A stretch of 64,000 nucleotides of DNA from an uncultured Gemmatimonadales bacterium (GTDB lineage Bacteria > Gemmatimonadota > Gemmatimonadetes > Gemmatimonadales > GWC2-71-9). The position numbers were made by a program. The stretch lies in assembly GCA_963779755.1 (NCBI GenBank), contig CAVZZO010000003.1, positions 832,001 through 896,000 of the forward strand, given 5' to 3'. The number at the start of each line of letters is the position of its first letter. Within the stretch, counting starts at the first letter, position 1. Positions 32,901-35,900 of this stretch are shown here, piece after piece.

Positions 32901-35900
32901 CGTCGGGCAGATCGAGAAACGAGGGCGCCGAGCCGGTACCATAATGGATATGGCGGTAGATCTCGTCGGCGACGATCCAGATCTCGTGCTTGCGGGCCCA
33001 CTCGGCGATCGCCTTCAGCTCGGAGCGGGTGTATACCGCGCCGGTGGGGTTGCAGGGCGAGCAGAGAATGATGCCGCGCGTGAGCTTGTCGGTCTGGCGC
33101 TCGAGATCGGCGACGCTCACCTTGAGGCCCCACTCCGGCTCCCCCGCCACCGCGACCGGTTCCGCCCGGCAGAGATGCACGATCTGGGGGTAGGACACCC
33201 ACGCCGGCGAAGGAATCAGGACCTTGTCGCGCGGGCCAAAGAGGCAGAAACAGGCATTGAAAATCGCCTGCTTCGACCCGGAGCTCACAATGACGTTGTC
33301 GGGATTGACCGCGCGGCCGCCGGAGAGCAGCGAAAGGTTCCGCGCGATCGCGGTGCGCAGCTCCGGGATCCCGATGTTGGGCGGGTAGCGGGTCTTGCCC
33401 TTCTGGATGGCCTGGATGCCGGCCTGCGCCACCAGGGGCGGCGTGTCGAAATCCGGCTCGCCCACGCCCAGGTCCAGCACGTCCTCCCCTGCCGCCCGGC
33501 GCCGCTTGGCTTCGGTGCTGATCGCGACCGTTTCCGACGCGCGCAGATAGGCGATGTTGGCGGAGAAGGAATCGGCCATGAGAGACAGTGCCTGTCAGGA
33601 AGACCTCGGACTCCAGCTGATGCGGCGCACCAGCCGAGGGACAGGAAGAAAATCCGTAACGTACCATGGGAAGTCAACAGGCCGCGCGCCATGGCGATCG
33701 CCCCGGCAGGCGCTTAGCTTCGAGCCTCGCAGCCTGGCGCTGTTTGACAACCGAGGGAGCCATGACGTTTGACGAATTGCCTGTGATGCCGGCCCTCGCC
33801 GCCGGCCTGGAACGCCTGGGATACCGACCCGACGAGCCCCTGGTGCGGGATACCATCCCGACGGCCGCCCGGTCCCATCCGCTGGTGCTGGTGGCACCCC
33901 CCGCGGCCGCGTACGCCCTGCCCGCCGCCGCCGGCCTGCTGAGCTCGGCGCGCGAGGGCACGCGCCTGGTCCTCTGCCCCGCCGCCGCCATCCCCGAATG
34001 GGAGGCCGGCCTGCGGCGCCTGACCGAGGGCAGCGGCCTTCGCCTCCACGCCGCCACCCGGCCCGGCCGCGCCGCGCGGCTCCTGGCGGAGAACAGCGTC
34101 GACCTTCTGGTCACGGCTCCCGAAACTGCGCTGGCGCTGCTCCAGCGCTCGGCACTCGGACGCGAGCGGGTCGGCGGAGTGCTGCTGGCCTGGCCCGAGG
34201 CCATGCCGGAACGCGACACCGCCCTCGCGCCGCTAATGCAGGAACTCGGCAGCGACACCCCCCGCCTGCTGGTCACCTCGGCACCCGCCCGCGCCGCCGA
34301 TCTCATCGAGCGGTACGCGCATCGCGCCGTCACGGTCACGCTCCCCGTCACCCCCCTCGAGCCCCGGCCCGGCGTACGCACCGTGGTCACCGGCTGGGAC
34401 CGGCGCGAGGCCTCGGCGGCACTGGCGATCGAAGTGCTCGACCCGGCGCGGGTGCTGCACTGGCACCTCGCCGATTCCCTCCCCGGTTCGCCCGAACCGG
34501 GCGCGCCGGGTCCCGACCTGGTAATCGCCTGGGACCTGCCGCTCCCGGCGCGCTTGCTGGAGCTGGCGGCCCTGGCGCCGGTTGTGCTGTTGGTCCCGCC
34601 CTGGGCACTGCCCTGGGTCAGCGGTATCGCGTCGGTCCGCCCGCTCCGGCTCCCCGGTGAGAGCGATGAGGCGCAGGACCGCGCCGCGCGCGACCGCGCG
34701 GCGCTCGCCGCCCTGGCCGCGGATCCGGCGATCGAGCACGGGCTCTTCGCCCTGGCGCCGCTCTTCGACCGCTACGACCCGGCGGTGATCGCCGCCGCGG
34801 CCTACACGCTGTGGCGCCGGAGCGGCACGCCCGAAGCCGCGCCGGTAGTGCCGCCCCCGGCGGCGACGACGCGGGTGTGGATCGGCGTGGGACGGAAGGA
34901 CGGCGCGACGGCGGCCGATTTCATGGGCGCGCTGACGCGCGAACTCGGGCTGGACCGGACCCAGGTGGGCCGGATCGAGCTGCGGGAACTGTTTACGCTG
35001 GTGGAGCTCCCGGCAGCCCTGGCTGAAGACACGGCGCGGCGGCTCACCGGACTCAACATCCGGCGCCGCCGCGTGACCGCCCGGGTGGACCGGCCGGCCA
35101 CCCGGCCCGACCGCCGTCCCCGCAGCCGGCCTACTTCTGGTTGAGGAGGTCCTTCAGCGCCTTGCCCGCGCGGAACGCGGGCACGGTGGACGCCTCGACA
35201 TCGATGGTGCCGCCGGTCCGGGGGTTGCGGACCTGACGGGCGGCGCGCTGCCGGGCTTCGAAGTTGCCGAAACCGGTGATCTGGACCTTGCCACCCTTCT
35301 TCAGCTCGGTGCCGATCACACCGCCGGGCGCGAACAGCGTGTCGATGATCTTCGCGGCGTTCGCACGCGAGGTTTCCAGGCGTTCGGCGACGGCCTCCAC
35401 CAGTTCCTGCTTGGTCACGCGCGGCTCCTTGCGGAAGAACTGCGTTCGTGGCATCCTAACGGCGGGCGAAGGGCCGCAATATGAGTCCCCTACCCGAGCC
35501 GCCGCAAGATGTCTAGCTTGACGTCTGCCCCCGCGCGACAACTTCCGGTAACGTAGCAGCCGGCCGGTCCGGCGCCTCCAGGCGGCCGACCGGCGGCGGA
35601 GAATCCGAACGATGTATCACGGCGCCCGGCCCGGCTCGATTGAAGTCATCTGCGGCGTGATGTTCAGCGGCAAGAGCGAGGAGCTCATCCGCCGGGTCCG
35701 CCGCGGCATCATCGCCCGCCGCCGGGTCCAGGTCTTCAAATCCCACCTCGATACCCGCTACCGCGGCCTCTTCACCGTTGCCAGCCACGACGGCTCGGAG
35801 TTCGAGGCCTCGCCGGTGGACAGCGCCGCCGAGATCTTCCGGCTGATCCGCCCCGACACGGAGATCGTAGCGGTGGACGAGGCCCAGTTCCTGGACGAGG

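What a model noticed while it worked through the whole genome (the two positions that open the first line are those of the whole stretch)
33762..35144. Class-wide catalytically dead DeaD/DbpA-type DEAD-box helicase; no active DEAD-box RNA helicase in this genome
g02876 keeps the first RecA domain, a shrunken second one and a DbpA-type RNA-binding domain, but motif I (GxGKT) is replaced by PPxx, DEAD by xWPE and motif VI is gone. It is single-copy and conserved next to hupB-tdk, so Gemmatimonadetes keep a pseudo-helicase, probably an ATP-independent RNA or ribosome factor.
Evidence so far: Model pLDDT 86; best fold match full-length DbpA, E 4.4e-17; sequence match to DbpA. Found in 30 of 30 family genomes, 44 of 61 overall, 0 of 15 outside the class; WPE invariant in 11 aligned, hupB/tdk adjacent in most of 30 loci. 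An intact DeaD query finds nothing here at E 1e-30, but an intact DEAD-box protein in 37 of 40 relatives and full DeaD in 7; six-frame motif scan negative.
(Added by a program. Inside this text positions count along the whole contig: contig position 832,001 is position 1 of the stretch shown here. "Call 12" and the like, gene names such as g00115 and contig names such as C1 are that model's own, and its searches are not shown. The text may have been shortened before it was handed on; [...] marks where a part breaks off. The agent that wrote the report below was given it as the finding of a first reader that could run no searches.)

Follow-up and report, generated by a model that had tools for sequence, protein, structure and literature searches.

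The report
Class-wide ATPase-dead DeaD-like dimer
Nearly all bacteria of one class keep a descendant of the RNA helicase DeaD that has lost its ATP motor but kept its fold and pairing helices and gained new conserved basic residues, so it probably works as a two-armed RNA holder and not as an enzyme.

Summary
Window 33762-35144(+) encodes a 460-aa DEAD-box fold (pLDDT 92) with no ATP or RNA motif left. It is single-copy and under purifying selection (dN/dS about 0.14). The genome has no intact DEAD-box helicase, only an HrpA/B-like DExH protein.

(1) It is DeaD/CsdA-type, not DbpA. It keeps the dimerisation helices, and a homodimer is modelled through them (ipSAE 0.52, controls 0.00).
(2) The decay is stepwise. 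PPxx and WPE are limited to one order; a least-decayed lineage keeps the Q motif and GSGKT but lacks the catalytic Glu and motif VI. None of 501 members has both the Lys and the Glu.
(3) The RNA-binding domain is dispensable: 22 of 71 genomes of one family lack it, and the nine tails measured are long and Arg/Gly-rich.
(4) Three basic residues (R37, R168, R188) are gained: 494-500 of 501 dead members have them, against 0-1 of 30 intact DeaD.

It is found in 275 of 286 class genomes and 0 of 15 outside. Best reading: an ATP-independent dimeric RNA/RNP holder (0.5); the target is unknown. The scan noted this family before on other DNA. I found no description in print beyond one sentence from 2011.

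The parts
33762..35144 (+). DeaD-derived pseudo-helicase gene, 460 aa (P0001)
   Evidence: GC3 0.88; dN/dS 0.10-0.24 in 11 of 12 homologue pairs
33762..34346 (+). RecA1-like domain (aa 1-195): fold intact, ATP and RNA motifs lost
   Evidence: Z 23.5, rmsd 2.4 A
33894..33917 (+). Remnant of motif I (aa 45-52, APPAAAYA); the P-loop Lys is replaced by Tyr51
   Evidence: Lys in 0 of 120 close homologues; PP in 120 of 120
34188..34199 (+). Remnant of motif II (AWPE, aa 143-146)
   Evidence: catalytic Glu in 0 of 120
33870..34325 (+). Gained basic triad R37 (33870-33872), R168 (34263-34265), R188 (34323-34325), with acidic E183
   Evidence: R/K in 495, 494 and 500 of 501 dead members, against 0, 0 and 1 of 30 intact DeaD and 2, 0 and 2 of 20 RhlE-like
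34368..34649 (+). Shrunken RecA2-like domain (aa 203-296); QxxR, motif V and the motif VI arginines are deleted
   Evidence: span median 109 aa in the family against 155 in intact DeaD
34659..34823 (+). DeaD-type dimerisation domain (three helices, aa 300-354)
   Evidence: DSSP on the model; PF25399 hits 5 of 17 dead members at E <= 0.05, though not P0001 itself; collinear with E. coli DeaD; modelled homodimer interface at 308-354
34863..35093 (+). DbpA/DeaD-type RNA-binding (RRM) domain, aa 368-444
   Evidence: PF03880 E 3e-17; most conserved domain within the family, 73% pairwise identity against 59-61% for the others
35094..35141 (+). Short Arg/Pro-rich tail
   Evidence: RBD plus tail net charge +8
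33715..33720 (+). Conserved -10-like hexamer TAGCTT upstream of the gene (promoter role inferred)
   Evidence: TAG[CG]TT in 51 of 79 upstream regions against 2.1 in shuffles; TTG..TA[GC].TT spacing in 44 of 79 against 0.2
33753..33759 (+). Shine-Dalgarno-like GAGGGAG
33671..33678 (-). TTGAC-type -35-like box facing the divergent aminotransferase gene (inferred)
   Evidence: GTCAAC-type motif in 50 of 79 against 0.2 in shuffles
32344..33579 (-). Class I/II aminotransferase, divergent neighbour
   Evidence: present in 79 of 80 family loci and 12 of 20 class loci
35131..35418 (-). HU-family DNA-binding protein, convergent; its 3' end overlaps the gene by 14 bases
   Evidence: present in 73 of 80 family loci and 13 of 20 class loci
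35612..36217 (+). Thymidine kinase; a neighbour only within the order
   Evidence: 77 of 80 family loci, 2 of 20 class loci

Best explanation
A DeaD/CsdA-type helicase lost its motor once, early in the class Gemmatimonadetes, and was kept as a non-enzymatic homodimer.

Shown by sequence, tree and models:
- All dead forms are one clade with purifying selection.
- The catalytic Glu and motif VI are missing everywhere; the Q motif and P-loop went later in most lineages.
- The dimerisation helices are kept in every lineage read.
- A new basic triad became fixed on RecA1.

Inferred mechanism: the dimer holds two basic RNA-binding arms (the RRM plus tail, or an Arg/Gly-rich tail in lineages without the RRM). 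It grips or brings together RNA segments without ATP, acting as an annealer, holder or placeholder on an RNP such as a ribosome assembly intermediate or an mRNP. The dead RecA1 adds a contact surface. This is the ATP-independent half of DeaD's activity kept on its own.
For: Dead. Of 501 non-intact family sequences (499 unique), none has both the Walker A Lys and the motif II Glu, and none has motif VI; 53 of 53 intact controls have all three. Loss of the motif VI arginine alone cripples DbpA (R331A, PMC2248767 abstract).

Kept. Present in 275 of 286 class genomes; dN/dS 0.10-0.24 in 11 of 12 pairs; conserved promoter-like and RBS signals; one clade with 100% ultrafast bootstrap, in which families f5, f6, f7 and f2 are each recovered at 99-100%.

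DeaD type. hhalign of the dead profile gives E 3.6e-35 to E. coli DeaD, collinear through the dimer helices, against 2.5e-28 to DbpA. The profile matches CshA 5ivl in one stretch (1-391) but DbpA in two stretches split at this region.

Dimer. ipSAE 0.52, best control 0.00; the runs agree in at least 71% of contacts; pLDDT at least 73; interface 308-354. The mark was reached by 20 of 30 known homodimers and 1 of 23 monomers. CsdA, CshA and Hera dimerise through such domains, and the RBD is their main RNA anchor (PMC11850223 passages).

RNA. The RBD is the most conserved domain where present. RBD-less forms carry 64-151-aa tails with 21-32% Arg and net charge +9 to +17 (9 of 10 measured). CsdA anneals RNA without ATP, probably through its basic C-terminus (PMC3590231 section 11). 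R103 and R106 are fixed in the order (f1 119 and 120 of 120; f2 13 of 13) beside the former motif Ib.
Against: - No experiment shows RNA binding.
- The core's own RNA-contact motifs (Ia Arg, Ic Arg, QxxR, V) are lost, and the core and dimer domains are net neutral to slightly acidic in P0001.
- The RRM is absent in 22 of 71 f2 genomes, so the most universal features are the fold, the dimer helices and the triad. These could serve a protein partner instead.
- The dimer pass may come from likeness to solved CsdA/CshA dimers.
- The triad could be an internal salt-bridge network with E183.
- No co-transcribed partner is conserved class-wide.
- The gene was not found in 7 f2/f6/f7 genomes (three with 5 or fewer contigs) or in 3 of 3 f9 genomes, so it may not be essential.
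Confidence: 0.5

Rival explanations
1. Protein-protein scaffold. The dead core and its gained basic triad dock an acidic partner (an RNA-decay enzyme, RNA polymerase or a ribosomal protein), and RNA binding is secondary, as with MUT-15.
For: The triad is more universal than the RBD (494-500 of 501). The RBD is dispensable. MUT-15 is an ATPase-dead DEAD-box-like scaffold (bioRxiv 10.64898/2026.09.04.749402, passages). D. radiodurans PriA kept DNA and DnaB binding without helicase activity (PMC4504706 abstract).
Against: No partner gene is linked class-wide. Arg patches and basic tails more often bind nucleic acid (general knowledge). The RBD is the best-conserved domain where it is kept.
Confidence: 0.18
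2. A dedicated 50S assembly placeholder that binds 23S rRNA hairpin 92 through its RRM, as DbpA and YxiN do.
For: Best fold and NCBIfam match is DbpA. The DbpA RRM binds HP92 (PMC8536315 passages). The gene is single-copy and near-universal in the class. Utp25 is a precedent in eukaryotic ribosome assembly (PMC9539457).
Against: It has the DeaD dimer domain that DbpA lacks. The CsdA-type RBD prefers G-rich single strands. The RRM is lost in 22 of 71 f2 genomes, including G027, which has no PF03880 hit at all.
Confidence: 0.15
3. A DNA or nucleoid accessory factor acting with HU or the nearby Mre11-Rad50-HerA cluster.
For: HU is the most constant neighbour (13 of 20 class loci). Rad50/Mre11-like genes lie within 10 kb in the window and in 4 of 4 order loci, and a HerA homologue lies in the window.
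Against: HU is convergent and the repair cluster divergent, so they share no transcript. The repair cluster is in 0 of 16 loci from other orders. HU is absent from 10 of 10 RBD-less loci read (about 4 kb each). The domains are of RNA-helicase origin.
Confidence: 0.08
4. A regulatory subunit that heterodimerises with, or lends its RBD to, an active DEAD-box helicase.
For: Hera heterodimers with one dead core still unwind RNA. 75 of 301 genomes carry an intact DeaD with the same kind of dimer domain, and most others carry an RBD-less RhlE-like enzyme.
Against: The gene is kept in 22 of 283 genomes of families f1-f8 where no intact DEAD-box core was found, including G000 (4 contigs), G035 (5), G027 (10) and G207 (1). 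RhlE-like proteins lack the dimer domain.
Confidence: 0.05
5. A still-active NTPase using non-canonical motifs.
For: 109 of 501 members keep the Walker A Lys, and the f5-type lineage keeps the Q motif, GSGKT and the first Asp, so nucleotide binding may survive there.
Against: In P0001's family the Q-motif Gln, the P-loop glycines and Lys, both acids of Walker B and the arginine fingers are all gone. Replacement residues differ between lineages.
Confidence: 0.03
6. A decaying pseudogene or an assembly artefact.
For: Long branches and low identity (14%) to active helicases.
Against: Open frames in hundreds of genomes, dN/dS about 0.14, conserved position and upstream signals, and a confident fold.
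Confidence: 0.01

Closest known systems
E. coli DeaD/CsdA, Geobacillus CshA, Thermus Hera (dimeric DEAD-box helicases)
   Same: Same order of domains (RecA1, RecA2, dimerisation helices, RBD, basic tail); collinear with E. coli DeaD; modelled dimer through the same region.
   Different: All ATP and RNA motifs of the core are lost, RecA2 is shortened from 155 to about 109 aa, a basic triad is gained, and the RBD is lost in some lineages.
E. coli DbpA / B. subtilis YxiN
   Same: Same RBD family (PF03880); best whole-protein fold match.
   Different: DbpA has no dimer domain and is an HP92-activated ATPase; HP92 specificity is untested here.
Utp25 (yeast SSU processome pseudohelicase; PMC9539457)
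   Same: DEAD-box fold with vestigial motifs, conserved for a non-catalytic role.
   Different: Eukaryotic, unrelated by descent, no dimer domain or RRM; its complex is known.
MUT-15 (C. elegans; bioRxiv 10.64898/2026.09.04.749402)
   Same: ATPase-dead DEAD-box-like fold used as a scaffold and RNA platform.
   Different: Eukaryotic RNAi complex with known partners; independent origin.
Deinococcus radiodurans PriA pseudohelicase (PMC4504706)
   Same: A bacterial SF2 helicase that lost ATPase activity across a lineage yet kept binding roles.
   Different: A DNA helicase family that kept its ancestral pathway; not DEAD-box.

Membership tests
Active DEAD-box RNA helicase | Two RecA-like domains | tested here: met
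   RecA2 is shortened
Active DEAD-box RNA helicase | Q motif Gln and motif I GxGKT | tested here: not met
   Val28 and Tyr51 in P0001; Gln in 1 of 120 and Lys in 0 of 120 close homologues; both kept in the f5-type lineage (85 and 80 of 86)
Active DEAD-box RNA helicase | Motif II D-E-A-D | tested here: not met
   AWPE; Glu column filled by Glu in 2 of 501, neither with the Asp or the Lys
Active DEAD-box RNA helicase | Motifs III (SAT), V and VI (HRxGRxxR) | tested here: not met
   motif VI in 0 of 501
Active DEAD-box RNA helicase | RNA-dependent ATPase and unwinding | not testable with these tools
   needs purified protein
DeaD/CsdA/CshA dimeric subfamily (by descent) | Dimerisation domain after RecA2 | tested here: met
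   (5 of 17 dead members hit PF25399; P0001 itself does not)
DeaD/CsdA/CshA dimeric subfamily (by descent) | C-terminal DbpA-type RBD | tested here: met
   for P0001; absent in 22 of 71 f2 genomes
DeaD/CsdA/CshA dimeric subfamily (by descent) | Branches with DeaD in a tree of the core | tested here: inconclusive
   the dead clade has a long stem (0.79); the neighbouring node has 69% support; outgroups were only three E. coli proteins and class paralogues
DbpA/YxiN | RRM joined to RecA2 by a short linker, no dimer domain | tested here: not met
   three helices lie between RecA2 and the RBD
DbpA/YxiN | Specific binding of 23S rRNA hairpin 92 | not testable with these tools
   feature taken from PMC8536315
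Pseudohelicase (Utp25, MUT-15, DrPriA kind) | Helicase fold with degenerate catalytic motifs, kept by selection | tested here: met
Pseudohelicase (Utp25, MUT-15, DrPriA kind) | Measured lack of ATPase and a shown non-catalytic function | not testable with these tools
   no experiment available

The most novel reading that the evidence does not exclude
This is a core, lineage-defining bacterial pseudohelicase that has taken on a new function. A new binding site (R37/R168/R188, on the edge of RecA1 away from the old active site by recalled topology) became fixed when the motor died and recognises one specific RNA or RNP target in nearly all Gemmatimonadetes. The RRM is an exchangeable helper arm that can be replaced by a disordered Arg/Gly tail. 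It would be a bacterial counterpart of Utp25, able to carry out its RNA-assembly role in cells with no DEAD-box ATPase.
Probability: 0.3. Interest if true: 0.8.

Novelty: new variant of a known kind. Interest (0 to 1): 0.62.

Why it matters
DEAD-box pseudohelicases in the papers I found are eukaryotic (Utp25, MUT-15), and the bacterial case found is a DNA helicase (PriA). A DeaD-derived one kept in about 96% of the sampled genomes of a widespread bacterial class would isolate the ATP-independent side of DEAD-box function and make it testable. Living lineages show the stages of decay: Q motif and GKT kept, then the Lys lost, then the pocket filled with Pro and Trp, then the RRM lost. It also corrects annotation: many members are labelled 'ATP-dependent RNA helicase DeaD', and RBD-less clusters carry no common Pfam family.

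Tried and rejected
This is no evidence either way.
- The single-sequence fold of an RBD-less member failed (pLDDT 41.5) and was not used.
- The E. coli-type promoter and terminator scan found nothing. The upstream signals come from comparing 79 regions.
- A TTGAC.AC.GAG motif before the start codon occurs in only 9 of 79 regions; rejected as a conserved element.
- A plain motif VI regex scan gives many false hits in this 68% GC genome; replaced by profile searches.
- The tree did not resolve whether the dead clade is sister to the class's own intact DeaD.
- The RhlE-like gene was considered lost to an assembly gap. In 9 of 20 relatives' loci it abuts citrate synthase; in G000 that site is mid-contig and holds a sensor-kinase-like ORF. 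A copy moved into a gap cannot be excluded (4 contigs, 97% complete).
- A search of the scan's notes by sequence returned nothing; the search by place returned one unrelated note.
- PMC13285594 was not relevant. Paper searches; none returned a description of this family other than the 2011 sentence.
- One dN/dS pair (0.44) included a long upstream extension and was set apart from the range quoted.
- Dead DeaD-like proteins outside the phylum were not surveyed. The top 150 of 48,983 profile hits were all dead-type and unnamed; the nearest Atlas clusters were mostly Gemmatimonadota.
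Full report
**The gene.** Window 33762-35144(+) encodes 460 aa. It lies between a divergent aminotransferase and a convergent HU gene that overlaps its end by 14 bases, followed by thymidine kinase. Pfam sees only a DbpA-type RNA-binding domain (RBD) at 371-441. An AlphaFold2 model from 135 aligned sequences has pLDDT 92.1. Foldseek ranks DbpA first (E 1.9e-18). Residues 1-195 superimpose on DEAD-box RecA1 domains (Z 23.5, rmsd 2.4 A, 194 residues); that call barely tests residues beyond 291.

**It is dead by every motif.** I numbered columns on E. coli DeaD (fetched, aligned) and counted residues. In P0001 the Q-motif Gln is Val, GSGKT is PPAAAYA, DEAD is AWPE and SAT is lost. 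QxxR, the motif V RG and the motif VI arginines are deleted. Among 501 non-intact family sequences (499 unique; and fetched loci), none has both the Walker A Lys and the motif II Glu, and none has motif VI. All 53 intact controls have them; that control set holds a few duplicate genomes. These sequences were collected by similarity to dead forms, so the count describes the clade, not all DeaD. Inactivity is inferred, not measured. Loss of the motif VI arginine alone cripples DbpA (PMC2248767, abstract).

**Decay is stepwise, not uniform.** The f5-type lineage keeps the Gln (85 of 86), the Lys (80 of 86) and the first Asp (86 of 86) but has Gly for Glu (85 of 86). Families f4 and f7 keep the Q motif and a glycine loop without Lys. 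Family f2 has also lost the N-terminal helices. The RecA2 span falls from 155 aa in DeaD to medians of 142 (f7), 129 (f5), 118 (f2) and 109 (f1). A RecA1 tree of 62 chosen rows puts all dead forms in one clade (100% ultrafast bootstrap); f5, f6, f7 and f2 are each recovered at 99-100%, and f4 is not one clade. That fits one origin and largely vertical descent. Its sister group is unresolved.

**It is DeaD-type, and probably a dimer.** Three helices (300-354) lie between RecA2 and the RBD. Pfam DeaD_dimer hits 5 of 17 dead members at E <= 0.05, though not P0001. The dead profile matches CshA in one stretch through this region but DbpA in two, and aligns collinearly with DeaD (E 3.6e-35) better than with DbpA (2.5e-28). 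Two copies of residues 200-446 fold as a dimer through 308-354: ipSAE 0.52, best control 0.00, runs agreeing in at least 71% of contacts, pLDDT at least 73. This mark was reached by 20 of 30 known homodimers and 1 of 23 monomers. CsdA, CshA and Hera dimers are solved (PMC11850223, passages), so the pass may reflect likeness.

**Distribution.** I searched 301 phylum genomes (G000 plus 300 at least 90% complete) with the RBD family, an intact DeaD core and a 45-sequence dead profile, then re-examined 36 doubtful genomes. By comparing match counts, the gene is present in 275 of 286 class genomes; most were not read one by one. One more has a partial hit. It was not found in 7 f2/f6/f7 genomes or in 3 of 3 f9 genomes. 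Outside the class, 0 of 15 have an RBD hit and the 8 profile hits equal their 8 intact-core hits. 79 of 80 named loci are titled Gemmatimonadota and one Bacillota, probably misbinned. Family codes are unnamed; calling f2 Gemmatimonadaceae would be my inference. dN/dS is 0.10-0.24 in 11 of 12 close pairs; the twelfth (0.44) included a long upstream extension. A -10-like TAG[CG]TT sits upstream in 51 of 79 regions against 2.1 in shuffles.

**The RBD is dispensable.** In 22 of 71 f2 genomes the profile match stops at positions 398-411 of 502 inside an open frame. These genomes were picked from count differences, not at random. I read 10: all have the aminotransferase or tdk beside them, none has an RBD, and all end in long low-complexity tails. 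Nine measured tails are 64-151 aa with 21-32% Arg and net charge +9 to +17. In the tree two RBD-less rows group with an RBD-bearing one (97%), hinting at more than one loss. G027 (100% complete, 10 contigs) has the RBD-less form, no PF03880 hit and no intact DEAD-box core.

**What was gained.** R37, R168 and R188 are Arg or Lys in 495, 494 and 500 of 501 dead sequences, against 0, 0 and 1 of 30 intact DeaD and 2, 0 and 2 of 20 RhlE-like proteins; position 183 is Glu or Asp in 461 of 501. On the model they sit at or just before the starts of strands 41-44, 168-172 and 190-193. By the recalled strand order of DEAD-box RecA1 these strands are adjacent and their N-terminal ends face away from the old active site. 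A single new patch is therefore inferred, not measured; an internal salt-bridge network is the alternative. R103 and R106 are fixed within the order only.

**No DEAD-box enzyme in this genome.** The nine PF00270 hits read by motif and sequence as Lhr, Mfd, RecG, RecQ, PriA, Cas3-like, SecA, DinG and UvrB (labels from my knowledge). A profile of 50 intact cores on all six-frame ORFs finds RecQ best (1e-20) and adds an SNF2-like ORF. An intact HrpA/HrpB-like DExH protein is present. Most relatives have an RhlE-like enzyme: 110 of 125 family genomes have an intact core, and 75 of 301 genomes have full DeaD at E < 1e-140. In 9 of 20 fetched loci it abuts citrate synthase; in G000 that site is mid-contig and holds a sensor-kinase-like ORF. 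The loss looks real, with small gaps as the caveat. It is sporadic and has precedent: a 2011 survey found at least one gene in every free-living genome it analysed (PMC3093544, passages), but Synechococcus elongatus has none (PMC8190605, passages). Its value here is that the dead protein does not need an active DEAD-box partner.

**Neighbourhood.** Among 80 family loci the aminotransferase is in 79, tdk in 77 and HU in 73. Among 20 class-wide 20-kb loci HU is in 13, the aminotransferase in 12, tdk in 2, and Rad50/Mre11 in 4, all from the order. The constant neighbours face the other way, so none is a shared operon.

**Mechanism.** Shown: dead motifs, retention under selection, DeaD architecture, gained triad, RBD loss in some lineages. 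Modelled: the dimer. Inferred: the dimer presents two basic arms and holds or anneals RNA without ATP (0.5). CsdA anneals RNA without ATP, probably through its basic C-terminus (PMC3590231, abstract and section 11), and the RBD is the main RNA anchor of dimeric helicases. Rivals are a protein scaffold (0.18), an HP92-specific 50S placeholder (0.15), a DNA accessory (0.08), a regulator of an active helicase (0.05), a cryptic NTPase (0.03) and decay (0.01).

**What is known.** Utp25 (PMC9539457, abstract and first quarter of the text) and MUT-15 (bioRxiv 10.64898/2026.09.04.749402, passages) are eukaryotic DEAD-box pseudohelicases. D. radiodurans PriA is a bacterial DNA pseudohelicase (PMC4504706, abstract). 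DbpA's HP92 specificity is from PMC8536315 (abstract and passages). PMC3093544 notes, as data not shown, a DbpA RBD without helicase domains in Gemmatimonas aurantiaca and three Treponema species, in 'small genes'; this may be the same family, unrecognised. Eight searches found no description of the family; subscription journals are mostly outside the library and no supplements were read. The scan's own notes describe the family on other genomes. My reading was written before I saw them, and their short summaries do not mention RBD loss or the gained triad.

**Verdict.** A real, undescribed bacterial DEAD-box pseudohelicase family: a new variant of a known kind. Interest 0.62.

Noticed in passing
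window 23765-30865 (-): Cluster of a Rad50/SbcC-like ATPase, an Mre11-like phosphoesterase, a HerA homologue (PDB HerA E 1.9e-43) and an unassigned 342-aa gene that I take for NurA (recalled, no family hit). It is kept near the pseudo-helicase within the order only.
   Followed up: partly
window 31832-32344 (-): About 170-aa protein of unknown function (weak DUF2283, E 0.003) downstream of the aminotransferase, present in 68 of 80 family loci.
   Followed up: partly
window 33671-33720: Back-to-back promoter-like signals conserved across 79 loci (TTG..TAG[CG]TT forward, TTGAC reverse); they may define the housekeeping promoter consensus of this group.
   Followed up: partly
window 35131-35144: The 3' ends of the pseudo-helicase and HU genes overlap; small overlaps occur in 25 of 73 family loci.
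   Followed up: no
L264:686-3259 (G000:C1:62685-65258, -): Divergent HrpA/HrpB-like DExH helicase with intact motifs, missed by the PF00270 search.
   Followed up: partly
L239: A contig titled Bacillota carries a typical family member; probably a misbinned contig.
   Followed up: no
G175:C9:5879-6532: A partial match covering only the RecA1 part of the dead profile in a 464-aa frame; possibly a different half-helicase.
   Followed up: no
G000:C3:784132-786837 (+), L006: Cas3-like helicase ORF with a C-terminal HD-like region (read by eye).
   Followed up: no
G000 contigs C2, C4 and the start of C3: C4 shares 12.3 kb with C2 and 8.2 kb with the start of C3 at over 99% identity: redundant assembly pieces or a repeat.
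   Followed up: no
window 36039-37493 (+): Dephospho-CoA kinase ORF with an unassigned C-terminal extension of about 200 aa.
   Followed up: no
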